A DNA stretch of 64,000 nucleotides from a virus (lineage: Duplodnaviria; Caudoviricetes): positions 12,440 to 76,439 of IMG/VR virus record IMGVR_UViG_2663763407_000006. One strand, 5' to 3'. Position numbers and translations under genes: made by a program. Below are positions 21,868 through 44,399 of the stretch, piece by piece. The notes under the pieces were generated by a model. The model made no database searches and was not told where the DNA came from. It saw only the letters and a list, made by a program, of their open reading frames with translations. Numbering within the stretch: the stretch's first letter is position 1; each line of letters opens with the position of its first letter.

Positions 21868-22093
21868 TGTTCATGGCCTCGAAATTGGGTTCTTCTTTTT
21901 CTGGCTCTAGCGGCTTACCGCGTAAACTGATTGGATTCAAAAAATGGCCCCAAGTGGTTTTCGGGTGTCCGTCTGGGCGTCGGATAAAAAAGATCCCCGA
22001 GCGGCGTAAAGAGTCACATTGTTTGGTTTTGTAGTGATGACCGGTCAACTCAATCATCTCCTCTTTGGTGATTATGTCGTGGTCGTTTTTCAT
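21857..22093 (-). CDS. Excisionase-like (DUF4224)
   Basis: ITKEEMIELTG..QC..L...GIFF..RPDG.P; overlaps int start. Confidence 0.85.
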   Translation of the reverse strand: MKNDHDIITKEEMIELTGHHYKTKQCDSLRRSGIFFIRRPDGHPKTTWGHFLNPISLRGKPLEPEKEEPNFEAMNSGR

Positions 22094-22256
22094 GGTCTTG
22101 CCCCTGTATCATTTGGGTTATTGCTCTGTCGGTAGCAGAACAGGCCCGCTGTATATCGTGGTCGGTGAGTTGTTGTTTCCGTACACTGGCTGATAATTTG
22201 CCGATCTTAATATCTAAGTCGGTTAATAGGCGTTTGCCCGGTTGCCATGGCTGCAT
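22050..22256 (-). CDS. Hypothetical protein
   Basis: 68-aa ORF in left operon with AGGG SD. Confidence 0.65.
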   Translation of the reverse strand: MQPWQPGKRLLTDLDIKIGKLSASVRKQQLTDHDIQRACSATDRAITQMIQGQDHEKRPRHNHQRGDD

Positions 22257-22305
22257 GGTGGTTTCCCTGGTGTTGGATTTCCACCATGCTAGCGGGGCAG
22301 GTTGA

Positions 22306-22488
22306 TTATTTCTGATTATGCAAAATCAATTTTTCGGGTGCTTTCTGCGGTGGGGTGCTGCTAATTCGAACATCTACCGGAAAATCGTAGTGAACATCAC
22401 AACGGCGATCAGTGTGGATGGTGCCTGTTCGTCCATCGGGGAGTGTGATATAGGACTTTTCACCGCGTTTGTGAGTACGCTTTAGCAT
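22306..22488 (-). CDS. Small protein with CsrA-like pattern
   Basis: MLKRTHKRGEKSYI vs CsrA MLILTRRVGETLMI; DFPVDVRI vs NAPKEVSV. Confidence 0.55.
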   Translation of the reverse strand: MLKRTHKRGEKSYITLPDGRTGTIHTDRRCDVHYDFPVDVRISSTPPQKAPEKLILHNQK

Positions 22489-22533
22489 GGGTGTTGCCTC
22501 AGTAATGCCCCGTTGGTTTGGGGCGGGATGAAA

Positions 22534-23034
22534 TTAGCGAACCTGCAGGCTACGGCTACCGATCTCGATATGCGCACCTTTAACATCAACACCATTCTCT
22601 ATGGCTTCCTTAATGGCTTTTTTATCGGGCGCTACGGTGGTTTGCACTGTCACCAATTCACTGGACAATAAGTCTTCATTGTCGATCACCACACTGGCCA
22701 CACCTTTGCGTGCGGTGAATGTGTTATACGGCGTTTTAAGTGTGTTCATATCTGCGGCCAATAAGCAGTTAAGGACGTACTGTTTGATCGATTTGGCCCG
22801 ATTCTCGAATGACCTTTTCCGCTCAGCCAGACGTTTAGCTTCCTCATCACAGGTCTTTGCTTGCCCCTCAAGATTGCGAACAAAGACGTAGGTTGCATCC
22901 AGCTTATCCCCCAGGGCACCCTCTAACCCCTCAAGCGTATCGGCGATCATTTCTGGCGTGAGTTCCTCTGAGGACTCAACCAACTGTTGCAGTTTGAAAA
23001 GGTCTGCGGCTAATGCGATTGCTGTATTGCTCAT
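22534..23034 (-). CDS. Siphovirus Gp157 family protein
   Basis: DTLEGLEG..E.KRL.ERK..PDKKAIKEAI..G..V.GA. Confidence 0.9.
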   Translation of the reverse strand: MSNTAIALAADLFKLQQLVESSEELTPEMIADTLEGLEGALGDKLDATYVFVRNLEGQAKTCDEEAKRLAERKRSFENRAKSIKQYVLNCLLAADMNTLKTPYNTFTARKGVASVVIDNEDLLSSELVTVQTTVAPDKKAIKEAIENGVDVKGAHIEIGSRSLQVR

Positions 23035-25229
23035 AATGTCGGCTCCTGTGCGGTAAGTTCAGCAACCCGTTTTTCAGTTAAGCGGTGTAACGCCAGCAGG
23101 CGGGTTTTGAGGTAATTGGCGTGTTCGTGATCGGCTTTGGCTTCTGCATCTTTGCGGTGTACATCAACTTCACGCGCAATGGTGCTGTAAACCTTGTTCA
23201 CTTCGTTGGTGGTGACGGCGCTCGTAATGGTATTGCCTACTTTGGTTAACTTCTCATCCAGCTCTTTGCGCAGACGAACTGAGTCACCGGCTTTCTCACT
23301 TGCGTTCTTGATAGCAAACTCAGCGGCGTTATCAGTGCGGTATCCGAGATCATCAAAAAGACCGAGGAATACATCAGCAGAGAAACCAAGTTGTGACAGT
23401 GCCTTTTTAGTCGCATCCGTTAGTGATTTTTTGGTGACTTCACTATCACAGGTGAGACCGTTTTTGGTGTTGTAGATATATGGGGTGCAACCATATGCAG
23501 GGATTTCGCCACGCTCACCACGCAGGGTGTAGATTAAGCGTATTTTAATGACATGATTGATCTCAGTTAGATAGCCGCCAGATCCGTTGGGTATGACTTC
23601 TTTTATATAATTTCCATCAGCACCTTTGACTGACCGCATGATCGGTGCACCGTTATCAAAGCGTTCTTCTAAAATCTCCACCCGCCAGTTGATACCTTGT
23701 GGCCCAAGCAATTTTGTTGCTTGCATAACCATATAGGTGCCGTTAATCGACGTGCCACCACCGTTATTTGAGAATGCTTTAGTAAAGCGTTCATCGGTTC
23801 TTTGCACCGAGCGCCACAGATTCATGTTGTCCTGCACATCTTGTGGCTGTGAAGATATATCCTCTTCAATGATGACGGCTCGCTGCTGAAATTCATCAGC
23901 AGTAACATCTACAGTAGGAATAGCGCTTTGCTGCGCCTCTTCAATAACCTCTGTCGGCTTCTCCTCAACTGAGGCATAAACGCTGTAACCCAACTGATCC
24001 AACGTCTCTTTAGCCTGTTGAGCTGCGTTATCAGTGATAGGTTCCAGTTCAGGGTTTTCCTGTTCTGTTTCAACAATTGGCGGTTTTGTTTCAGTTTCTG
24101 GCTCAGAATTGGCAACCAGCGCCAGTTTTGTTTCATTGTTTGCCGCTGGTTGCGGTTCACCACCGGCTAGACCATCAATAGAGAACTTGCCATCACCCAG
24201 ATTGGTTACTGCGGGTTGTGGGTTTTTAACGGCTAAACACTGAGTGATAAATTCCTTTCGTGCTGAGGCATCGGTCAGGAAGATAGGTTGCTTTTTACCC
24301 GCGCGGATCACTTCAAAGATGCTTTCACGTGGAATAGATAACACATTGTTGCGAACGCGAAAATCGGTTGACCATTTACGCCAGGCATCATCATTGTTAT
24401 CCATCAGCTCTTTTGCTTGCTTCATCTCTGCCGACATGACATCCCAGCAGTTAAAATCAGCAGGCAATAAGGCGAGAGCGACTTCGAGATCGAGCGTTTT
24501 ATATGTGTGCTCAAAGCTGCGTTTGATTGGCGCATCAGGAGCCGGCGTGTCAATACGGGCAACTTTTTTAGTACCGGTTAACTCGTCACGATTGCTGGGT
24601 TCATTAACCCATTTTTCAGCAAAGCTACGTACTTCCCTGAATCCAGGTATTTTGGGGAATTTCTTATTTATCGCATCAATAAGATTTTTAATTGACTGCG
24701 GATACATCGCGCCAATTGCAGGAATACATGTGAGCGCCATGTATATCGAACTTATTTCCGGCTCAGCGTCGTCATCATTAATTAAGTCATACACAAGTGA
24801 TAGCTCATGTGAATCAATGTCACGCGCACCGTACAACATTACGCTACCAACTTTAGCTCCAATACCCAGTTTGTTGAAATCAACCGGAGTAGTAGTAGTA
24901 ATGTCCTCACTTACCTCGCCGTTGTCTTCATTACCATCCTCAGGCAACGGTACAGCATTAGGCGTCCATACTTTGCCATCAAAGGTATTATCCTGTGCGA
25001 ACTGCTCATCGAACTCACCAACAACCGGGCGCGGTTGCCCGACAGTATCCTCACAGATTTTCGGATCAGCAAAGTTATCACCGGCAGCGGGGTAGGCTTC
25101 CCATAATTTCCCGATGGCCAGTGCGGATGCCATTTTCTTATTTATGGCTTCCAGAGCTATAACAAGCGGTATAGCCCCATTTTTGAGAGCCGCTTTTTTC
25201 GGCTCGAATAAACAAATAAATACAGTCAT
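23031..25229 (-). CDS. RecE-like N-terminus fused to Rad52/Sak-like annealase
   Basis: HTYKTLDLEVALALLP (RecE-like); TSING.Y..ATKLLGPQG..W and KKSLTDATKKALSQLGFSADVFLG (Rad52-like). Confidence 0.75.
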   Translation of the reverse strand: MTVFICLFEPKKAALKNGAIPLVIALEAINKKMASALAIGKLWEAYPAAGDNFADPKICEDTVGQPRPVVGEFDEQFAQDNTFDGKVWTPNAVPLPEDGNEDNGEVSEDITTTTPVDFNKLGIGAKVGSVMLYGARDIDSHELSLVYDLINDDDAEPEISSIYMALTCIPAIGAMYPQSIKNLIDAINKKFPKIPGFREVRSFAEKWVNEPSNRDELTGTKKVARIDTPAPDAPIKRSFEHTYKTLDLEVALALLPADFNCWDVMSAEMKQAKELMDNNDDAWRKWSTDFRVRNNVLSIPRESIFEVIRAGKKQPIFLTDASARKEFITQCLAVKNPQPAVTNLGDGKFSIDGLAGGEPQPAANNETKLALVANSEPETETKPPIVETEQENPELEPITDNAAQQAKETLDQLGYSVYASVEEKPTEVIEEAQQSAIPTVDVTADEFQQRAVIIEEDISSQPQDVQDNMNLWRSVQRTDERFTKAFSNNGGGTSINGTYMVMQATKLLGPQGINWRVEILEERFDNGAPIMRSVKGADGNYIKEVIPNGSGGYLTEINHVIKIRLIYTLRGERGEIPAYGCTPYIYNTKNGLTCDSEVTKKSLTDATKKALSQLGFSADVFLGLFDDLGYRTDNAAEFAIKNASEKAGDSVRLRKELDEKLTKVGNTITSAVTTNEVNKVYSTIAREVDVHRKDAEAKADHEHANYLKTRLLALHRLTEKRVAELTAQEPTL

Positions 25230-25284
25230 GTTGGTCTTGCCTCTTTGGTTTTTAAACGGATCTTGGTCTTTGATGTATGACTAA

Positions 25285-25620
25285 TTAAAAAGGAATTTCG
25301 GTATCATCAGATACGTTCGATGGAGTGCTGTGCTCGATGCATAGCAACGCCTGAATCTGATCATCAATTAGTGACTGCTTACGATATGACTCAGCCGCAA
25401 TCTGTTCCTTTTTGCTATGGAGTGAATCGACATGCTTGCTGATGATTTCAAAAGGGTCGGGTTCGTCAAAAGGAATCGTAATTTCTCGGGTTTCGAGTAA
25501 AACATGCGCTGGCTCAACCTGTGACATGTCACAGGTGTACACGGTAAAGCGATCATCTTTTGATGTTGAATATGGATTGGTATGGATGTAGAGCTTGGTG
25601 GTTATCTGTAGTGCTGTCAT
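25285..25620 (-). CDS. Hypothetical protein
   Basis: AGGAG SD before ATG 25620; ends with SSB-like acidic tail DDTEIPF. Confidence 0.75.
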   Translation of the reverse strand: MTALQITTKLYIHTNPYSTSKDDRFTVYTCDMSQVEPAHVLLETREITIPFDEPDPFEIISKHVDSLHSKKEQIAAESYRKQSLIDDQIQALLCIEHSTPSNVSDDTEIPF

Positions 25621-25629
25621 AGCAACTCC

Positions 25630-25638
25630 TGATATACT
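25630..25638 (+). promoter_or_regulatory. Extended -10 promoter antisense to left operon
   Basis: TG-A-TATACT; purines 7-8 nt downstream; no good -35. Confidence 0.6.
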
Positions 25639-25644
25639 TATTTT

Positions 25645-25762
25645 AAGATTGATGGCGTAAGCCGTTGGTCTTGCCTCTGTTAACGGGTTGGTCCCCGTTA
25701 GCTTCCCGGTTAACTTTGGTCGGTGACCCGGGGTAAAGAAGCCCACTTCGGTGGGTTTTTTT
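25645..25762 (+). ncRNA. Predicted antisense sRNA targeting early-gene RBSs
   Basis: Promoter, GUAA-capped GU-rich stem, two UUGGUC-loop hairpins, cUUCGg terminator with U7; seed complementary to repeated RBS motif. Confidence 0.7.
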
Positions 25763-25930
25763 ACGTCTGTAATTTGGTGCCCATTACGCCGGGCCAGCGG
25801 GTCAGATCTTCGGTCTTGCCTCACCACACTTTCCCGTCGTGGCTACGTTATTGGTTTGGGCTGCTGCACTGTGGTAATCATGCCGAGCCTTGGCGCGGGG
25901 TTCTCCTCCAATGCAACAACCCAAATTCTG

Positions 25931-26086
25931 TTATTGCCGTACTTTGACTACTTGATAATCACGGCCAGTATTACGTGCGTAATCATCAGCTTCTTTGCGA
26001 GTTGGGTAAGTATTTCCGTTAGCCCACATTCCACAGTAGCGATATTGGATCTGGAATTTACTCGCTTGCTTTTTAGTTGCTTTCAT
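25931..26086 (-). CDS. Small basic hypothetical protein, first gene of left operon
   Basis: GAGGG SD before ATG 26086; 51 aa. Confidence 0.6.
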   Translation of the reverse strand: MKATKKQASKFQIQYRYCGMWANGNTYPTRKEADDYARNTGRDYQVVKVRQ

Positions 26087-26236
26087 AACTTCCCTCTTTT
26101 GCCGTCTTCCCGGCTGCCAGAACGTACTAAACCTAAACTTGCGAATCATCCGGTGTTTCGTATGCCACCGGCAGCTACTTCGTGGGCGTCCTGCCTGTTC
26201 GCATCGGCTACTGTGCCGTGTTGATGAAAACAATTA

Positions 26237-26274
26237 AACACTTTGGTTGTATTTATGTCAACAACTTTGGTTGT
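26237..26274. promoter_or_regulatory. OL operators (two 14-bp ACAA-N6-TTGT-type sites) at pL
   Basis: AACACTTTGGTTGT 26237 and ACAACTTTGGTTGT 26261, matching OR sites; minus-strand TTGACA between them. Confidence 0.8.
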
Positions 26275-26443
26275 ATTTTATGGCGAATTGGTTTTATTTG
26301 TGTTTTCTTAGCTTTAGTTTGGTTATGCTTTTTTGAATTTTTTAGAGGTTAATCAAGTAATGAAGGCTAAATTTAGGTAGGCGTTTATGACGTAGGGATT
26401 CATGTATGCGCCCCTCCAATGAGAAGGGGCAGGAAATGGATTA

Positions 26444-27601
26444 CTATTTTTTCTTGTTTCTGAAATTATCATCGTCCATACAGTAATTGTATGAATCCAA
26501 GATTAGCCCGGATAATCGTAAAATATTTTCAGGGCGATCTATTATAATTTGATTGCCTGGAGCTAGCTCAAGTCCCGCTCGCTCAACTTCTGCAATAGCT
26601 TTTTCATCTAATTCAATTGGTAAGATTATCGATGGTCGCTGTTTACTATCAAAATAGCGTACAACCCAACGGTTTGATTTTCCTTGGCAAAGAATATTGT
26701 AATAACTGGCTGTGTCTTTTGCTGAAATATCAGCCTGTTCACCAAGTAATAGTTGAATATTACTAAAAAATAACCTTTCGTTATGCGTAGTAACTATATT
26801 TGAATTTTCAGGATCCACGACTGACGCAGTTTCATCTATTTTTTTCAGCTCTGGTGCTAGTGCGACTTCAACATCTTTGTCTTTGTTGGAAGCCATTGAT
26901 AGCCCAGAAACTACCATTGCACTAACAGCTCGTTCTACTGCCATTTTTACTAGTGGTGTAATTGTGTCGAGAAACTTTTGGTTCAACTGTCGTTGTACGC
27001 TAGAGCGACTTGCAACATAGCGGACAAAATCAGCATCAACATTCCTTAAACTATCACTGATAACATCAGTAAATGCTGATAAGTATATGCTTTCTTCAGC
27101 TAAGGTTCGAAGTGCTTCTGGTTGGAACTGGTCGTGACGGAATTGATATAGCTGATGAGCATCAGAGTCCGATGCTTCATCTACATCAATCTGTAGGAAT
27201 GGAGAGGCATCCATAATATTTCTTTGCTTAAGGTCGGTAAAGAAACGCCATTGGGTGCCATTAGTTATAGCTGCAATAGTGACCTCAGGTGTCGCGTTAA
27301 AGTATCTAGAAAGCTGAGGGCAATGGTTATCAAGTTTCTGATTATAGCCCTTGGCCTCAATAAACATGACAGGAACACCATGGCAAAATAGGGCATAGTC
27401 GACTCGTTCACCTACTTTAACACCAGGGAAATCAGCGCCATATTCTGCTTTAACTTTCGTTGGGTCATAAGAGTTAAAGCCAAGAATATCTAACATTGGC
27501 AATATTAATGCTTGTTTAGTCGTTTCTTCGGTAGAACAATGATGGCTTACTTTTTTTACGTGATCAGAGTGCGCTCTTAATTTCTCAGCGAATATCTTCA
27601 T
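26444..27601 (-). CDS. HsdR N-terminal-like PD-(D/E)xK nuclease domain protein
   Basis: EETTKQALILP..LG, VDYAL..MFIEAK, QLSRYF, TNGTQWRFFTD. Confidence 0.85.
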   Translation of the reverse strand: MKIFAEKLRAHSDHVKKVSHHCSTEETTKQALILPMLDILGFNSYDPTKVKAEYGADFPGVKVGERVDYALFCHGVPVMFIEAKGYNQKLDNHCPQLSRYFNATPEVTIAAITNGTQWRFFTDLKQRNIMDASPFLQIDVDEASDSDAHQLYQFRHDQFQPEALRTLAEESIYLSAFTDVISDSLRNVDADFVRYVASRSSVQRQLNQKFLDTITPLVKMAVERAVSAMVVSGLSMASNKDKDVEVALAPELKKIDETASVVDPENSNIVTTHNERLFFSNIQLLLGEQADISAKDTASYYNILCQGKSNRWVVRYFDSKQRPSIILPIELDEKAIAEVERAGLELAPGNQIIIDRPENILRLSGLILDSYNYCMDDDNFRNKKK

Positions 27602-27668
27602 ATTTTCCTTTAACTCTTAGGTTGAGTGACACTCCTACCCTCATTGGACTACTTAGAAGTTAGAGCTA

Positions 27669-28382
27669 TCAATAATCCAGAACTGACCACCAAAACACGC
27701 GGCCAATAATTTCTACGGTTTCTCCGTCAGCATCTTCATCTGGGTGCTCGACTTTATTAAAGCTGCGGATACTTAGCTTATTTCCTGGCATACGATATAA
27801 AAGCTTAAGGCGTTTTAATCCGTCTTGATTGATTGCATATATTTTACCATCGATAATTTTTTTATTTGCACAATCAACAGCTACTGTCGTACCGTTTGGT
27901 AGAATCGGCTCCATGCTATTTCCATGGGCTGGAAAGCAAATAACATTCTCTTTCTGAGCACCAACTCGTCGCAAGGTCGATTTCGAAAAGCGAAGTTTAA
28001 AACCATTGTAGTCTTGATCACAAAAGCTACCATCACCGGCAGCAAGTTCAATATCACGTAAGAATGGTACTTCGACCTCGTCTTCGTGAATTGGGCACTG
28101 ACTATCCCAAGGTATAATATTCCCCCATTCATTCTCAGAAGGAATATTTGATTCCTGATTTATTGTTTTAGTCGATTCCTTCATCGGCAAAATCCCTTCT
28201 CCAAGCCATTCCGGGCGTACCTGGAGTGCGCGGGAAATTTCCAGTAGCTTAGTGGTGCTCTGGCTTTTACCGGACGTTATTTTTTGAATAGCAGCTTGTG
28301 AAACTCCAGCCTTCTCAGCTAGCGCAGCCTGAGTTAGCCCAGATTCCTTCATGGCTACTTTCAATCTTTGTGCAAGTGTCAT
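27669..28382 (-). CDS. cI: CI repressor (HTH + S24 autoprotease)
   Basis: HTH, AAG cleavage site, GNSMEP, LKLL, IIGRV. Confidence 0.95.
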   Translation of the reverse strand: MTLAQRLKVAMKESGLTQAALAEKAGVSQAAIQKITSGKSQSTTKLLEISRALQVRPEWLGEGILPMKESTKTINQESNIPSENEWGNIIPWDSQCPIHEDEVEVPFLRDIELAAGDGSFCDQDYNGFKLRFSKSTLRRVGAQKENVICFPAHGNSMEPILPNGTTVAVDCANKKIIDGKIYAINQDGLKRLKLLYRMPGNKLSIRSFNKVEHPDEDADGETVEIIGRVFWWSVLDY

Positions 28383-28399
28383 TCCCATCCTCGCAAAAT

Positions 28400-28490
28400 A
28401 CAACCTTAGTTATACTCGGTCAAATCACTATTGTTGTTGCTTAAAAACAACCTTGGTTGTATATTTGCAGTTAAATACAACAAAGGTGAT
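28400..28490. promoter_or_regulatory. OR operators (434-like ACAA-N6-TTGT)
   Basis: ACAACCTTAGTTAT 28400, ACAACCTTGGTTGT 28447, ACAACAAAGGTGAT 28477. Confidence 0.8.
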
Positions 28491-28494
28491 TGAA

Positions 28495-28761
28495 ATGGAT
28501 AATGTAATTAAGACGGCAATTAAAATTGTTGGCACTCAAAAGAGACTAGCAGAGGCGTGCGGCGTTACTCAGGCGGCCGTTCAAAAATGGTTATGCGGCA
28601 AAGCAAAGGTAGCCCCGAGAAATGTTAAATTTCTCGTTGAAGCTACCAATGGTGAGGTACAAGCGCATCAAGTTCGCCCTGATTTACCAGACTTATTTCC
28701 GCATCCTCATCCGCATCCAGAGCCTGAAGCTAGCCTAACCCAATCCCACTCACAAATCTGA
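28495..28761 (+). CDS. cro: Cro/YdaS-like regulator
   Basis: GTQKRLAEACGVTQAAVQKWL..RPDLPDLF; divergent from cI. Confidence 0.9.
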   Translation: MDNVIKTAIKIVGTQKRLAEACGVTQAAVQKWLCGKAKVAPRNVKFLVEATNGEVQAHQVRPDLPDLFPHPHPHPEPEASLTQSHSQI

Positions 28762-28798
28762 TTATCAATAATCAATTTCCTGCGACAGGAGACGCAAC

Positions 28799-29263
28799 GT
28801 GGAACAAGAAATCAAAGCCCTTAAAGCCGAAGTTCAGGCGTGGGCGGCAGAGCGGGGGCAGGAGCATGTAGCTATCGAGATCAGCAGAATGTTTTTCTTG
28901 CTCAATATCAACACCGGTTCAGTTCGTCTCACTCCCATTGAAAACGGGCAGGGCGGCGCTGATTGGAAGTCTATTAATAACAACCGGCAGCAGTTATTTC
29001 GCTGGCTGCGCGGGGATTCAAAAGCATCAATGCGCAAGGTCTTGGAATTATCACCGGTACTTAAAGCGGCACTCCCGGCAGAACGGCGGGCCAGGGTGAA
29101 TGGCGAGACCGTGAATTATTTGGTTTCGATTGCTAGCCGAGAGTTTGCCGCAGCAATTAGCGCGGTTCTATTAGATGGCTGTGACATGTCACAAAGAATA
29201 TCGGGCGCTGTTGCGGCACTTCACGCAATCAGACCACAACACCAACGGCTGACCACCGTATAA
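28799..29263 (+). CDS. CII-like/YdaT family protein
   Basis: AWAAERGQEHVAIEI..NRQQLFRWL..ALPAERRAR. Confidence 0.8.
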   Translation: MEQEIKALKAEVQAWAAERGQEHVAIEISRMFFLLNINTGSVRLTPIENGQGGADWKSINNNRQQLFRWLRGDSKASMRKVLELSPVLKAALPAERRARVNGETVNYLVSIASREFAAAISAVLLDGCDMSQRISGAVAALHAIRPQHQRLTTV

Positions 29264-29279
29264 AACAGAGGCAAGACCA

Positions 29280-29504
29280 ATGCTTACATCTATCGACAAA
29301 ATCACCTGGCGCAATGGATTCCGGCTTAACGGCCAACCGGCAAGTATGGCTGACATCGCCCCTATTTTTGCCGGGCGTCAGGTAGCCGCCTATAGCGTGT
29401 GGGAGCAGTACGAGCAGAAGAAAGCTGACCTGCGCGGGATGAACCTATCGCCTGACGATTATCAGTCTGCCTGTCGGCAAATAGCCGCAGCGCTGGGGAT
29501 CTGA
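29280..29504 (+). CDS. Hypothetical protein
   Basis: GAGG SD; between cII-like gene and initiator. Confidence 0.75.
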   Translation: MLTSIDKITWRNGFRLNGQPASMADIAPIFAGRQVAAYSVWEQYEQKKADLRGMNLSPDDYQSACRQIAAALGI

Positions 29505-29506
29505 CT

Positions 29507-30481
29507 ATGAGCATGAATCTAATGGCTAAGGCCATGAGTATCAAAGTCGGGAACCCGTTACGTAAATTGGTACTGATAAAATTAGCCGACAATGCCAACG
29601 ATCAGGGCGAGTGCTGGCCATCGGTTCCCTATATTGCTGAACAGTGTGAAATATCCGAACGCTCGGTACAGAATCATATCCAACAACTGGTAAAAAATGG
29701 GCTGGTTAGGATTGAAGAGCGTAAATCTGAAAATGGCTTAAATCGCTCAAATGTTTATCACCTGCGCTTAAATTCCGCTGGTGCAAATGCTGCACCCTAT
29801 GGTGAATCTCCTGCACCCTCTGGTGCAAACGGTGCACCGGTTAGTGGTGCAAATGCTGCACCCAGAACCAGTCACTCTTTTGAATCAGTCATAGATCCCA
29901 ATACACCCCTTACCCCTCAAGGGGGAACTGAAAATATTCTCGCTGACGCTGAAAGGGCGTTGGCGTATTACAACCAACTCACTCACACCCGATGTGAAGA
30001 CCCAGGGCCATTTGAAATCTTGCTGACAACAACCAAATCGCGCAAAGCCTATGCGCTGGTTGATTTGCAGTTGGTGACCCATTGGGTGGTCAGCACATGG
30101 AAACCACGTAACGGCAAGTATGCCAAGCCTGCGAATATCTGCCGCGTGAATCGGTTCGATGGTTATCTGGCCGATGCCCGCGCATGGTCTGAGTCTGCAG
30201 GGCGGATTGATTGCGATGCAGTCATTGCTGCATACAACCGTGTGTTCAGCGATGTTTTGCCACTGGCTGAAATCGATCAAGACCGTAAGCACGCTATCCG
30301 CGAATTACTCCAATACCTCAAAACCAAAGATCTTGAAGCGTTTCAGGGCTATTTCGAGGCGTTCCGCGAACAGGCTCCGGTGTTTTATTTCGGTGGTGAT
30401 GATGGTTCCCACTGGCGCGCCAATTTTGATTATTTGATGAAACCGGACGTGTTGAGAAAAACCCGCGATGGTGCGCTATGA
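29507..30481 (+). CDS. Replication initiator (wHTH)
   Basis: KLVLIKLADNAND.GECWPS..IAEQCEIS; internal iterons. Confidence 0.9.
   Translation: MSMNLMAKAMSIKVGNPLRKLVLIKLADNANDQGECWPSVPYIAEQCEISERSVQNHIQQLVKNGLVRIEERKSENGLNRSNVYHLRLNSAGANAAPYGESPAPSGANGAPVSGANAAPRTSHSFESVIDPNTPLTPQGGTENILADAERALAYYNQLTHTRCEDPGPFEILLTTTKSRKAYALVDLQLVTHWVVSTWKPRNGKYAKPANICRVNRFDGYLADARAWSESAGRIDCDAVIAAYNRVFSDVLPLAEIDQDRKHAIRELLQYLKTKDLEAFQGYFEAFREQAPVFYFGGDDGSHWRANFDYLMKPDVLRKTRDGAL
29780..29862. repeat. Origin iterons, four GGTGCA-N5-TGCACC-type palindromes
   Basis: Copies at 29780, 29801 (variant), 29822, 29846. Confidence 0.85.
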
Positions 30482-31851
30482 AACCTCAAGAGTTAGAAGC
30501 GGCAATTCTATCCGGCCTGCTGTATGGCGGCTCAACCCCTGATGCGTTGGAGGTTATTGCCACACTGCCGGAAGAGGCATTTAGCATCAGGATTTATCGT
30601 TCTGCCTATGCGGAAATTAAAAAGCAGGCACTGACCAAAGGGATGATCGATGTTCTGTTTGTCAGTGAGGCGCTGGGCGGTAGTAGTCTGGCTACGCTAT
30701 CTGAAATTGTCCGTATGCCGGGCAACGTGGCGAACCTGAAAGGCTATGCCGCCCATGCCCGTAAGATTTGGTATAGCCGCACCATGACCGCATTATTTCA
30801 GACCGCGGCTGACGGCATCCGAGGGGCGAACAATCAGGAACAGCGCGATCAGGTGATACAGGGAGCGGTAACACAGCTAATTGATATGACGGCAGATAGC
30901 GGCGGCATTATCCCGGTGCATCTAAATGACTTATTGCCCGGCTATATGGACATGCTGGATAAGCGCATGAATGGTGAAATTGAGTCAATGAACCTGCAAA
31001 GCGGCATTGTCGAGCTGGATGCCATCACCGGTGGCTTTAACCCGCAGGACTTGGTGGTTATCGCCGGGCGTCCGGGGATGGGTAAGACCGAGTTTGCGTT
31101 GAGAATTGTTGAGGGGGCCACACAGAACGGCGGCGGGGCGCTGATATTCAGTATGGAAATGGCTTCCCTACAGATGGTAGAGCGTTCCGTTGCCGGGGTC
31201 GGTAATTTGCCGGTGTCAAAATTGCGTGACCCTAAAACCTTATGTGACGAGGACTGGGCGCGCATTAACTCTGCACTACAGGCATTGAATGGCCGTGATA
31301 TTTGGATTGTTGATGCCAGCGAACTAACCATCGATCAGATACGGGCTATCGCCGAAACACACAAGCGCCGGTACCCGCAATTAAGAATGGTGATGGTTGA
31401 TTATCTTGGCCTGATTACCAAACCCAAGGCGGAGCGTAATGACCTATCAGTCGGCATCATTTCACGCGGCTTAAAAACACTGGCCGGTCGGATAAACACC
31501 CCGATTTTTGCCCTTAGCCAGTTATCCCGAAAAGTGGATGAACGGCCACCGGGTAGCCGTAGGCCAATCAGTTCCGATCTCAGAGACTCCGGTTCAATCG
31601 AGCAGGATGCTGACAGCATCATTATGTTGTATCGAGAGGCGGTTTATAACGCCGATAGTCCGGCGGCCAGATTTGCCGAGGCCATTGTAACCAAAAACCG
31701 ATTTGGTGAGCCCGGCACCGTTTATCAGGAATTTAAAAACGGCCACTTTCTGCCGGTGGATCAACTAGTGGCAAAGGAAGCCAGCCGAATAGCAAAAGAG
31801 GCATCAAGGCCACCGACCAAAGAAAAACACTATTCAACACCTAAATTTTAA
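30478..31851 (+). CDS. DnaB-like replicative helicase
   Basis: GRPGMGKT, FSMEM, VDYLGL, LSQLSR, DLRDSGSIEQDAD. Confidence 0.96.
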   Translation: MKPQELEAAILSGLLYGGSTPDALEVIATLPEEAFSIRIYRSAYAEIKKQALTKGMIDVLFVSEALGGSSLATLSEIVRMPGNVANLKGYAAHARKIWYSRTMTALFQTAADGIRGANNQEQRDQVIQGAVTQLIDMTADSGGIIPVHLNDLLPGYMDMLDKRMNGEIESMNLQSGIVELDAITGGFNPQDLVVIAGRPGMGKTEFALRIVEGATQNGGGALIFSMEMASLQMVERSVAGVGNLPVSKLRDPKTLCDEDWARINSALQALNGRDIWIVDASELTIDQIRAIAETHKRRYPQLRMVMVDYLGLITKPKAERNDLSVGIISRGLKTLAGRINTPIFALSQLSRKVDERPPGSRRPISSDLRDSGSIEQDADSIIMLYREAVYNADSPAARFAEAIVTKNRFGEPGTVYQEFKNGHFLPVDQLVAKEASRIAKEASRPPTKEKHYSTPKF

Positions 31852-31894
31852 CCGCGCCTGACCAGCGTGTGAACTAACCCAAAGAGGCAAGACC

Positions 31895-32317
31895 ATGCAT
31901 ACAATCAATGAATACATCAATGAAAAACGTCCGGTTATTGACGATGGCTGCGACCACGGCCCGGCAATAATAGATCGTATCAATCAAGCAGCTCGCGCTC
32001 GTCTGCGTGTCCCATATGTTCCCGCACCAAAGCTGGATAAGGTGGCTGAACCTGTCATTGAACATGGCGCCATGGTGAAAATCGGTAACCGTATTAGCTA
32101 TGGTCGCCGCGTTATGACCGGCATTTATGAATTACAGCGCCTTGGCCGTTCCCCGCAACGTATTTCAGTCATGCTAAAAATGCCGCTGGATAGAGTTGAG
32201 CACATTCTTAAAGCAGATACCCCGGTAAGACTGGAACTACTCAACAAAGTAAAGGCCGGGCCACTCCCCAGCGAACCCAACATCATGAAACGCCTGGCGG
32301 CTGAGTCGAGGGCGTAA
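31895..32317 (+). CDS. Hypothetical protein (possible HTH)
   Basis: GAGG SD; GRSPQRISVMLKMP..V.HIL. Confidence 0.7.
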   Translation: MHTINEYINEKRPVIDDGCDHGPAIIDRINQAARARLRVPYVPAPKLDKVAEPVIEHGAMVKIGNRISYGRRVMTGIYELQRLGRSPQRISVMLKMPLDRVEHILKADTPVRLELLNKVKAGPLPSEPNIMKRLAAESRA

Positions 32318-32319
32318 CC

Positions 32320-32571
32320 ATGGCCGGGCAATCGGATTATCTCCCACCCGGACTCCCGTACAACATTTGCCTCTGGCCTCAGGAATACCAAGAAAAGCTA
32401 AATCTTGATTTGAGGGCCAGCGGCTTAATCAAAAATCTGTACGAGCGTAGAACCCACCGCGCCCACGTACTGGAAGCGATTGAACGGGTACCGGTGCATT
32501 ATCGGGAGTTTTTTAAACAGCGCTTAAATTACTGGCGTGACCGTAGAGACCACAGAGGTGAGACCAAATGA
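32320..32571 (+). CDS. Hypothetical protein
   Basis: GAGGG SD; ATGA-coupled to next ORF. Confidence 0.7.
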   Translation: MAGQSDYLPPGLPYNICLWPQEYQEKLNLDLRASGLIKNLYERRTHRAHVLEAIERVPVHYREFFKQRLNYWRDRRDHRGETK

Positions 32572-44316: not shown

Positions 44317-44373
44317 GAAACTACGCTTTAACAATTACCGCCAACGGTAAAAAACTGAGTTATCCAAAATCTG

Positions 44374-44399
44374 AGCCTCGCCATCGTGCGGGGCTTTTT
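44374..44399 (+). terminator. Intrinsic terminator
   Basis: AGCCTCGC-catcgt-GCGGGGCT plus Ts. Confidence 0.7.

What the first reader, a model, noticed from the sequence alone, without database searches (positions are those of the whole stretch)
22268..31869. GACCA-loop hairpins upstream of target RBSs, matching the sRNA UUGGUC loops
Seen: ACGG-CTGACCA-CCGT (29245-59) and CGCGC-CTGACCA-GCGTG (31853-69) share an identical loop on unrelated stems, 8-14 nt before the GAGG of the RBS motif. Minus-strand analogues are ATC-AAAGACCAA-GAT (25260-74), GCCCC-AAACCAAC-GGGGC (22507-24) and TGGTG-GAAATCCAA-CACCA (22268-86). Inference: bipartite recognition, with loop-loop kissing followed by SD occlusion. 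Alternatively these are binding sites for an RNA-binding protein, in a CsrA-like hairpin-plus-SD arrangement.
Basis: partly seen in the sequence, partly recalled or inferred. Interest (0 to 1): 0.7.

Follow-up and report, generated by a model that had tools for sequence, protein, structure and literature searches.

The report
GACCA-loop hairpins in prophage early leaders
Small RNA hairpins that display the letters GACCA sit just upstream of a shared ribosome-binding site on several early genes of a ZF40-like prophage, and they probably give the phage's own small RNA a second grip on those messages, though binding has not been tested.

Summary
The window holds a ZF40-like lambdoid prophage. The two + strand hairpins (29245-59, 31853-69) are exactly as described, 8 and 14 nt before GAGGCAAGACCA. 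The three minus-strand "analogues" mostly fail. One has a 3-bp stem. One has lost GACCA here. One belongs to a different, stronger helix.

A GACCA in a 4-bp hairpin loop is not rare in this window: 21 of 112, against 18.4 with shuffled flanks. The case therefore rests on position and comparison. In related phages, 8 of 48 non-redundant motif-bearing leaders carry such a hairpin, against 1 of 163 control starts. The stems covary and the loop stays C-Y-GACCA or GACCAA.

The partner is an IsrB-family sRNA (about 25646-25768). It has two covariation-supported UUGGUC hexaloops and a 5' stretch complementary to the shared RBS. In a Serratia clade the RBS variant and the sRNA change together (12 of 12 against 171 of 174).

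Best reading (0.5): loop-loop contact followed by RBS occlusion. No binding or expression data exist. A protein reader or a translational enhancer is not excluded.

The scan had already noted the sRNA-RBS regulon on other DNA (e1-5357453). The hairpin as a second site is what this report adds.

The parts
25646..25768 (+). IsrB-family small RNA. The 5' end is inferred from a conserved extended -10 (TGaTATACT, 25633-38). The Rfam match covers 25675-25761. The terminator ends in U7.
   Evidence: RF01386 scores 35.0 bits, equal to the gathering score. The + strand folds at z -4.2 against -1.5 for the - strand. The -10 is conserved in an alignment of 30 sequences.
25664..25681 (+). Anti-RBS stretch of the sRNA, complementary to (A)ACAGAGGCAAGACCAA(C).
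   Evidence: Exact complements of 17, 15 and 13 nt at 29264-80, 25230-44(-) and 31883-95. A 24/25-nt complement to 29264-87.
25681..25700 (+). sRNA hairpin 1: 7-bp stem with hexaloop UUGGUC (25688-93). On the - strand the same bases form the cis-target hairpin with loop GACCAA, 3 nt before its RBS copy (25666-77).
   Evidence: 12 distinct homologues: 98.8% of cells paired, 7 of 7 pairs with changes on both sides, loop kept in 11 of 12.
25704..25733 (+). sRNA hairpin 2: outer helix plus a 3-bp inner helix that closes hexaloop UUGGUC (25716-21). CUUUGGUCGG is invariant, and is also present in Salmonella IsrB.
   Evidence: RNAalifold on 22 sequences; the inner pair is GC:15 / AU:6 / GU:1. Gifsy-2 IsrB.
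29245..29259 (+). Hairpin ACGG-CUGACCA-CCGU in the last codons of the cII-like (YdaT) gene, 8 nt before the RBS of the 29280 gene. This is the weaker of the two.
   Evidence: -3.5 kcal/mol alone and not in the 76-nt MFE fold. 19 of 21 close relatives have C at 29245, which leaves 3 bp. The same hairpin sits in intergenic DNA before other genes in L202 and ZF40 gp05.
29231..29235 (+). Distal unstructured GACCA box of the same leader.
   Evidence: Kept in 20 of 21 relatives.
29268..29282 (+). Shared RBS GAGGCAAGACCA plus the ATG of the 29280 gene (phrog_2465).
31853..31869 (+). Hairpin CGCGC-CUGACCA-GCGUG in the spacer after the DnaB-like helicase gene, 14 nt before the RBS of the 31895 gene. 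This is the best-supported instance.
   Evidence: In the MFE fold, -5.7 kcal/mol. The GCGC/GCGC core and the loop are invariant in relatives, and the fourth pair is seen as G.U, G-C and A-U. Present in Serratia and ZF40.
31884..31897 (+). Shared RBS GAGGCAAGACCA overlapping the ATG of the 31895 gene.
25229..25268 (-). Leader of the RecE-like exonuclease gene: an unstructured AAAGACCAAGA box (25263-68) 19 nt before the RBS (25232-43); ATG at 25229.
   Evidence: No stable stem. The box is absent where another upstream module is present, in 4 of 21 loci.
22093..22168 (-). xis leader: RBS variant GGGGCAAGACCA (22093-104; the A-to-G change would still pair as G.U) and UCACCGACCA (22159-68), which is complementary to sRNA loop 2.
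22489..22524 (-). Decayed copy of the cassette: hairpin GCCCC-AAACCAAC-GGGGC plus RBS GAGGCAACACCC before the 22488 gene.
32548..32570 (+). GACCA box 2 nt before RBS variant GAGGUGAGACCA (both changes would keep pairing by wobble) and an ATG at 32568.

Best explanation
The hairpins at 31853-69 and, more weakly, 29245-59 are real RNA elements on the mRNA strand. Each forms the first half of a two-part leader cassette. The cassette is a short stem presenting C-Y-GACCA (or GACCAA), followed 2-20 nt later by the extended RBS GAGGCAAGACCA. The cassette copies the design of the cis target of the prophage's IsrB-family sRNA. In the proposed mechanism, the sRNA's UUGGUC hexaloops, which carry a YUNR U-turn signature, make a fast loop-loop contact with the GACCA loop. 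Hairpin 2 is the likely partner, because its UGGUCGG is the full complement of the CYGACCA heptaloop. The sRNA's 5' stretch then zips 13-17 bp across the SD, spacer and AUG and blocks the ribosome. The result would be joint repression of excision, recombination and replication-region genes of both early operons in the lysogen. Shown here: the sequences, the structures by covariation, the enrichment, and the concerted RBS/sRNA variant. Inferred: expression and 5' end of the sRNA in this host, binding, the order of the steps, and the regulatory outcome.
For: (1) An sRNA of a family detected experimentally in Salmonella: RF01386 at 35.0 bits; IsrB seen as 88/94-nt RNAs (passages of PMC2330248); listed among ProQ-associated prophage sRNAs (passage of PMC5391140). 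(2) Both UUGGUC hexaloops are closed by covarying helices. UUGG fits YUNR as described in the passage read from PMC4485353. (3) Exact 13-17-nt complements at three gene starts. (4) Across 76 related loci, 17 of 48 trans leader clusters have GACCA within 45 nt and 8 of 48 have it in a loop closed by at least 4 bp. Control starts give 10 of 163 and 1 of 163 (Fisher 1.4e-6 and 3.3e-5). (5) For 34 unfiltered CNGACCA contexts, 68% of cells are paired against 53% in shuffles (0 of 500 reach it). One pair occurs as AU 8, GC 7, GU 6, CG 2 and UA 1. The wobble pairs work only on the mRNA strand. (6) Concerted change: where the sRNA reads UUGGUCUUUCCUC, 12 of 12 distinct trans leaders have GAGGAAAGACC. 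Where it reads ...UUGCCUC, 171 of 174 have C, and the other 3 have U, which would still pair with G. All 5 copies in one Serratia prophage carry the variant, and 3 of its 4 trans leaders have GCGC-CUGACCA-GCGC. (7) The same layout is present in the cultured phage ZF40. (8) Gifsy-2, whose IsrB lacks the anti-RBS part, has no such hairpins or targets in its first 15 kb.
Against: There are no RNA data for this prophage. The sRNA's 5' end is only inferred; if it matched Salmonella's, only about 4-10 nt of the anti-RBS stretch would be in the RNA. The loop complementarity follows automatically from the sRNA being antisense to one such leader. The hairpins are thermodynamically weak, the 29245 one is not in the MFE fold, and it is reduced to 3 bp in 19 of 21 relatives. 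31 of 48 motif-bearing trans leader clusters have no upstream GACCA, so the hairpin is not required for the RBS motif. ZF40's hairpin 1 lacks UUGGUC although its leaders have the hairpins, and the Photorhabdus loci have sRNA loops but no leader hairpins. The concerted RBS variant is one clade, so possibly one event or gene conversion. The wobble tally is inconclusive: of 20 variant 12-mers, 8 carry only pairing-preserving changes, 10 only breaking changes, and 2 are mixed. A loop contact of 5-7 bp next to a 13-17-bp duplex may add little.
Confidence: 0.5

Rival explanations
1. The GACCA loops and the GACCA in the RBS spacer are two sites for an RNA-binding protein, phage-encoded or host, that bridges a hairpin loop and the RBS as CsrA does. 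The sRNA's loops would then be a by-product of antisense transcription, or a decoy for that protein.
For: Two like sites 10-30 nt apart, one in a loop and one at the RBS. The complementarity of the sRNA loops is automatic for a cis-antisense RNA. Several small early proteins have no known function.
Against: The loops lack GGA, so this is not CsrA itself. GACCA is presented in different shapes: heptaloop, hexaloop, unstructured box, and directly next to the SD. That fits base pairing better than shape-specific protein binding. The concerted C/A change of the RBS together with the sRNA has no reason under a protein reader. No candidate protein was identified.
Confidence: 0.2
2. The C/A-rich GACCA(A) boxes are translational enhancer or standby elements displayed in a loop to recruit the 30S subunit or S1. 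The sRNA, if it acts in trans at all, works through the RBS duplex alone or by masking the enhancer.
For: The listed abstract of PMC3879156 says GcvB pairs just upstream of the yifK SD, and its title names translation-enhancing ACA motifs silenced by an sRNA. The boxes occur both structured and unstructured. The hairpin is optional.
Against: A generic C/A-rich enhancer does not explain an invariant GACCA, the conserved C-Y before it, or stems that covary to keep it in a loop. Only the title and abstract of that paper were seen.
Confidence: 0.12
3. The hairpin has no function of its own. It travels with the shared RBS as part of a junction cassette that is copied between gene boundaries by recombination.
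For: The identical 15-nt ACGGCTGACCACCGT precedes different genes in the window (the 29280 gene) and in ZF40 (gp05). Three leaders of one Serratia prophage share GCGCCTGACCAGCGC.
Against: Stems diverge by compensatory changes while the loop stays fixed, across Yersinia, Serratia, Providencia and Pectobacterium phages. Flanking intergenic sequence varies around an invariant core.
Confidence: 0.13
4. The hairpins are boxB-like nut sites for an N-type antiterminator. They resemble the P22 boxB stem and GACAA loop as I recall it; no call supplied that sequence.
For: The G+C stem with a GAC-containing loop looks similar.
Against: There are three or more sites per phage, each directly before an RBS, rather than one after PL and one after PR. 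No boxA-like word lies near them: 2 matches in the window against 2.1 expected, neither adjacent (the boxA consensus is recalled). No N-like protein was found.
Confidence: 0.02

Closest known systems
IsrB sRNA of Salmonella prophages Gifsy-1/-2 (Rfam RF01386)
   Same: Same place and strand logic: antisense to the leftward early operon next to the RecE-type exonuclease gene. Same hairpin 2 with loop CUUUGGUCGG and the same terminator. The Salmonella RNA is detected as 88/94-nt species.
   Different: The score only just reaches the gathering score (35.0, against 99.3 for Gifsy-2). The 5' half differs: here there is an anti-RBS stretch and a UUGGUC hexaloop, while Gifsy-2 has a UAUA loop and no anti-RBS. 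Gifsy-2 shows no shared RBS or leader hairpins in its first 15 kb. My searches found no published target for IsrB.
Staphylococcus aureus RNAIII with coa mRNA (and, from recall, rot)
   Same: One regulatory RNA binds several mRNAs through an RBS-masking duplex plus a separate loop-loop contact. The targets carry a shared signature (abstract of PMC2837412).
   Different: Here the loop-loop site is upstream of the RBS, not in the coding region. The regulator is a phage cis-antisense RNA. Nothing has been tested experimentally.
P1/P7 c4 antisense RNA acting on icd/ant
   Same: A phage immunity-region RNA that blocks expression of downstream lytic functions by pairing with the mRNA (passages of PMC8198154). 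The two-box recognition with one box over the RBS is recalled, not read.
   Different: The window has no match to the C4 family. c4 has one target transcript. Here up to six or seven genes in two operons carry the address.
Kissing-loop antisense control (CopA/CopT, RNAI/RNAII, hok/sok) with YUNR U-turn loops
   Same: Complementary hairpin loops, a YUNR motif in a recognition loop (UUGG in the sRNA, CUGA in the CUGACCA loops), and a 5' tail that completes the pairing (passages of PMC4485353).
   Different: Those systems act on one fully complementary cis target. Here only the loop and the RBS stretch are complementary in the trans leaders, and the stems are unrelated.
CsrA sites (GGA in a hairpin loop plus GGA in the SD)
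   Same: The geometry of a loop site plus an RBS site.
   Different: The loops have no GGA. The common word is GACCA.

Membership tests
IsrB (Rfam RF01386) | Covariance-model score at or above the gathering score of 35 bits | tested here: met
   35.0 bits at 25675-25761(+), exactly at the cut-off. Gifsy-2 scores 99.3. It appeared only in the scans, not in the whole-window gathering scan.
IsrB (Rfam RF01386) | Position: antisense within the leftward early operon, beside the RecE-type exonuclease gene | tested here: met
   The window has one gene (phrog_2479) between the sRNA and the exonuclease gene. In Gifsy-2 the sRNA sits directly upstream of the exonuclease gene.
IsrB (Rfam RF01386) | Hairpin with loop CUUUGGUCGG followed by an intrinsic terminator | tested here: met
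IsrB (Rfam RF01386) | Expressed as a roughly 90-nt RNA bound by ProQ or Hfq | not testable with these tools
   No RNA run holds this prophage.
Kissing-loop antisense recognition | Complementary loops of about 5-7 nt on both partners | tested here: met
   UUGGUC against GACCA(A), and UGGUCGG against CYGACCA. For the cis pair this is automatic.
Kissing-loop antisense recognition | YUNR motif in a recognition loop | tested here: met
   UUGG opens both sRNA hexaloops and CUGA opens the CUGACCA loops. Definition taken.
Kissing-loop antisense recognition | A loop-loop complex forms and speeds binding | not testable with these tools
   Needs kinetics or structure probing.
C4 antisense RNA (P1/P7) | Match to the Rfam family | tested here: not met
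   No C4 match at gathering threshold in the window, nor at E<=10 in 25400-26400.
CsrA binding sites | GGA in the loop and in the SD | tested here: not met
   The loops are CUGACCA, CCGACCA and GACCAA, with no GGA.
nut site (boxA + boxB) | boxA nearby; one site after each early promoter | tested here: not met
   (boxA consensus recalled). The hairpins lie before RBSs of several genes.

The most novel reading that the evidence does not exclude
A phage-private post-transcriptional regulon with a portable two-part address label. In this reading, one IsrB-family sRNA reads a GACCA loop plus an extended RBS that has been copied, as a mobile cassette, onto up to six or seven early genes in both divergent early operons of ZF40-like prophages of Yersinia, Serratia, Providencia and Pectobacterium. 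The perfectly complementary cis copy in the PL transcript would act as an induction-triggered sponge that frees all trans targets at once. That would also give the long-orphan Salmonella IsrB family a function.
Probability: 0.3. Interest if true: 0.75.

Novelty: new variant of a known kind. Interest (0 to 1): 0.55.

Why it matters
IsrB has been known since 2008 and my searches found no published target for it. A relative with an obvious multi-gene target set and a second recognition element would give a testable function, namely silencing of excision, recombination and replication genes in lysogens. It would also offer a natural example of how a cis-antisense RNA acquires a trans regulon by spreading copies of its target's leader. 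The cassette (variable stem, fixed loop, fixed RBS) is compact enough for direct mutational tests in the cultured phage ZF40.

Tried and rejected
RNA evidence: no RNA holder is listed for 25200-26300. Three RNA runs of the same species label gave 0-4 reads, all on the unrelated conserved element at 26125-26198, so they are no test of the sRNA.

RNAduplex ranking of 288 ORF starts against the sRNA put 29280 and 31895 first. The energies were implausibly low throughout (median -30 kcal/mol), so I dropped it and used exact complements instead.

Searches that found little. No relative of the sRNA in 5,426 E. coli genomes. The megablast of 22000-32500 against phages found only a 60-nt element. The 14-mer and 16-base pattern scans returned mostly chance hits. 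From, only 8 of 120 loci passed my sRNA filter.

The 12-nt complement of sRNA loop 2 at 31811-22 occurs only in the window among the loaded loci. Relatives read CGGCCAAAG there. I treat it as a one-off.

The wobble test of RBS variants was inconclusive.

The hairpin-1 loop classifier picked a different 5' hairpin, so its loop counts are void. Only its leader totals are used. Its rule for skipping cis copies also skipped the window's own 31895 leader.

The consensus fold of A1 missed hairpin 1 because MAFFT misplaced a gap. I re-tested hairpin 1 on an ungapped, loop-anchored alignment.

The nut/boxA idea was rejected. Gifsy-2 served as a negative control. The fold of the conserved element after the putative PL was unremarkable (z -0.4).

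Clusters are not fully independent. Several trans clusters are variants of one leader type, and I count about 5-6 independent hairpin types.

Supplementary files of papers were not opened. Table S1 of PMC2330248 may bear on IsrB coordinates.


Full report
WHAT THE WINDOW IS. The region 20.8-36 kb is the early region of a lambdoid prophage. In order it holds int, xis, two small genes, a Mu-Gam-like gene, a 732-aa RecE-type exonuclease, a phrog_2479 gene, a CI repressor, YdaS/Cro-like and YdaT/CII-like regulators, a 74-aa gene (phrog_2465), an O-like initiator, a DnaB-like helicase, a 140-aa gene and a theta-like gene. The window is part of an IMG/VR provirus record. The gene order is that of Pectobacterium phage ZF40. 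Near-identical copies of the sRNA locus lie in a Yersinia genome, and more distant ones in Serratia, Providencia, Xenorhabdus and Photorhabdus.

THE OBSERVATION. Both + strand hairpins are exactly as written. ACGG-CTGACCA-CCGT lies at 29245-59 and CGCGC-CTGACCA-GCGTG at 31853-69. They end 8 and 14 nt before GAGGCAAGACCA, which abuts the start codons at 29280 and 31895.

That 12-mer is over-represented in the window: 17 matches with up to 2 mismatches, against 4.6 expected. The exact copies lie at four sites: three gene starts, and the copy antisense to the sRNA.

The minus-strand "analogues" are weaker:
- 25260-74 has a 3-bp stem that is neither predicted nor conserved.
- 22507-24 is a genuine 5-bp hairpin, but here its loop is AAACCAAC and its RBS is degenerate. 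Its homologues in relatives carry GACCAA and a perfect RBS.
- 22268-86 is part of a different, far stronger helix that sequesters the 22256 start codon (-27.5 kcal/mol, z -4.3).

IS IT MORE THAN CHANCE? Not from the window alone. 21 of 112 GACCA words sit in a loop closed by at least 4 bp, against 18.4 +/- 3.8 when the flanks are shuffled. CTGACCA occurs 17 times. The hairpins fold at only -3.5 and -5.7 kcal/mol with unremarkable z-scores, and the 29245 hairpin is not in the fold of its 76-nt context.

The signal lies in position and comparison. I collected 76 related loci with at least two motif-bearing starts and clustered the leaders. Among 48 trans clusters, 17 have GACCA within 45 nt upstream and 8 have it in a loop closed by at least 4 bp. 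Among 163 control SD-ATG start clusters from the same loci, the counts are 10 and 1 (Fisher 1.4e-6 and 3.3e-5). The clusters are not fully independent. I count about five or six independent hairpin types: ACGG/CCGU, NGCGC/GCGYN, CACGC/GCGUG, GCAGC/GCUGC, GCCCCG/CGGGGC and GGCGC/GCGCC. Among 148 sRNA-bearing loci, 121 hold at least two trans motif leaders, and 92 of those have at least one such hairpin (counts not deduplicated).

STRUCTURE. I aligned all 34 distinct C-N-GACCA contexts found within 45 nt of a motif RBS, anchored on the loop and unfiltered, so about seven non-hairpin contexts are included. 68% of cells pair, against 53% in shuffles (0 of 500 reach it). Sliding the partner gives at most 51%. 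One stem position occurs as AU 8, GC 7, GU 6, CG 2 and UA 1. The conserved core is 4 bp; the fifth pair is formed in only 10 of 34. G.U pairs fall on the mRNA strand. That argues for a sense-strand RNA hairpin rather than a DNA site or an antisense structure.

The 31853-type hairpin keeps GCGC-CUGACCA-GCGC while the surrounding spacer varies. The 29245 hairpin is weaker, because 19 of 21 close relatives have C at 29245, which leaves 3 bp. The identical 15-mer also sits in intergenic DNA before other genes in L202 and in ZF40 gp05. It is therefore not a by-product of the CII-like reading frame.

THE PARTNER. On the + strand at about 25646-25768 lies an sRNA that matches Rfam isrB at 35.0 bits, exactly the gathering score. 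It folds far better on the + strand than on the - strand (z -4.2 against -1.5) and ends in a terminator with U7.

Salmonella IsrB is an experimentally detected 88/94-nt RNA (passages of PMC2330248). [quoted passage not shown] My searches found no target described for it.

Evidence from homologues of the sRNA:
- In 12 distinct homologues, hairpin 1 pairs in 98.8% of cells, with changes on both sides at 7 of 7 pairs and the loop UUGGUC kept in 11 of 12.
- In 22 homologues, hairpin 2 has a covarying inner helix (GC 15, AU 6) that also closes a UUGGUC hexaloop.
- A -10 box (TATACT, TAAAAT or TATAAT) is conserved at 25633-38. This puts the inferred start near 25645, upstream of the stretch 25664-81.
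- That stretch is the exact complement of 17, 15 and 13 nt across the RBS and start of the 29280, exonuclease and 31895 genes.

HOW THE LOOPS FIT. GACCAA hexaloops complement UUGGUC. The heptaloops are always C-Y-GACCA in the hairpin types. That is the complement of the invariant UGGUCGG of sRNA hairpin 2: perfect for CCGACCA, and with one G.U for CUGACCA. ZF40's hairpin 1 lacks UUGGUC, yet its leaders carry the hairpins. I therefore think hairpin 2, the part shared with Salmonella IsrB, is the more likely partner. UUGG fits the YUNR U-turn motif described for recognition loops.

The order of elements matches the cis pair. On the sRNA, the tail comes before the hairpin. On the mRNA, the hairpin comes before the RBS.

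An important caveat applies. The sRNA is antisense to a leader of the same design, with a GACCAA-loop hairpin 3 nt before an RBS copy at 25666-77. Its loops would therefore be complementary to GACCA loops even if those loops were read by a protein.

CO-VARIATION BETWEEN sRNA AND TRANS SITES. I fetched sRNA loci by a pattern in hairpin 2 and the terminator, which is independent of the RBS. This gave two sRNA types.
- In loci whose sRNA reads ...UUGCCUC, 171 of 174 distinct trans leaders read GAGGCAAGACC. The other 3 read GAGGU..., which would still pair as G.U.
- In loci whose sRNA reads ...UUUCCUC, 12 of 12 read GAGGAAAGACC.
- In one Serratia genome, all five copies on the prophage contig carry the A variant, and three of the four trans leaders have GCGC-CUGACCA-GCGC.

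This is what pairing predicts, but it is a single clade, so it may be one event or gene conversion. A wider tally of RBS variants is inconclusive: 8 of 20 carry only pairing-preserving changes, 10 only breaking changes, and 2 are mixed. The three most widespread variants (30, 13 and 8 loci) are all pairing-preserving.

AGAINST THE MODEL.
- 31 of 48 motif-bearing trans clusters have no upstream GACCA.
- The Photorhabdus loci have the sRNA loops but no leader hairpins.
- The hairpins are weak.
- A 13-17-bp RBS duplex may not need help from a loop contact.
- There are no expression or binding data.

VERDICT. The two + strand hairpins are real, conserved parts of a leader cassette. The reading that they give an IsrB-family sRNA a second contact before RBS occlusion is the best supported (about 0.5) but untested. 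A protein reader (0.2), a displayed enhancer (0.12) and passive spread of a junction cassette (0.13) remain possible. The closest working analogues are RNAIII-coa, kissing-loop antisense systems and P1 c4 (the window does not match the C4 family). The sRNA-RBS regulon had already been noted by this scan on another genome (e1-5357453) and on this one (e1-6203468 and e1-6203469). What this report adds is the comparative test of the hairpins, their covariation, the loop-2 fit, the concerted variant and the ZF40 example.

Noticed in passing
window 26139-26202 (- strand transcript): A 60-nt element just downstream of a putative PL (-35 at 26261-56, -10 at 26238-33; not called by the promoter scan). 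It is 85-95% identical to unannotated DNA in ST64B, SfII, YeP1-3, phiNP and other lambdoid phages. A few RNA-seq reads from an unrelated run map only there. Its fold is unremarkable (z -0.4). It may be a nut- or put-like leader element.
   Followed up: partly
window 22250-22298 (- strand): A stable helix (CAUGGUGG paired with CCACCAUG; -27.5 kcal/mol, z -4.3, 0 of 200 shuffles as good) buries the SD and AUG of the 22256 gene. It may serve for translational coupling or control.
   Followed up: partly
window 25811-25822 (- strand): A further copy of the RBS motif (GAGGCAAGACCG) with no start codon after it. It lies on the PL transcript upstream of the bidirectional terminator and is conserved in relatives. 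It could be a decoy site for the sRNA or a relic.
   Followed up: no
window 25618-25677 (- strand): The cis RBS copy is followed by ACG here but by ATG in some relatives (for example L022 and L089), in frame with the 25620 gene. In Providencia-type phages it opens a 4-codon mini-ORF (MINH*) ahead of a conserved AGGAG-ATG start.
   Followed up: partly
window 26240-26276 (- strand): Two direct copies of ATACAACCAAAGT flank the putative PL -35 box. They may be operator-like repeats.
   Followed up: no
window 44331-44397 (+): Match to Rfam isrJ (54.7 bits, gathering score 37), another Salmonella island sRNA family, in the late region.
   Followed up: no
L475 (ZF40) 2190-2260 compared with window 29245-29282: The identical ACGG-CTGACCA-CCGT hairpin plus RBS precedes gp05 in ZF40 but the gp13 homologue in the window. 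ZF40 gp13 has the RBS without the hairpin. The cassette therefore moves between gene boundaries.
   Followed up: partly
window 31811-31822 (+): A 12-nt exact complement of sRNA loop 2 inside the helicase gene. It is unique to the window among the loaded loci, since relatives differ by one base. It is probably a one-off.
   Followed up: yes
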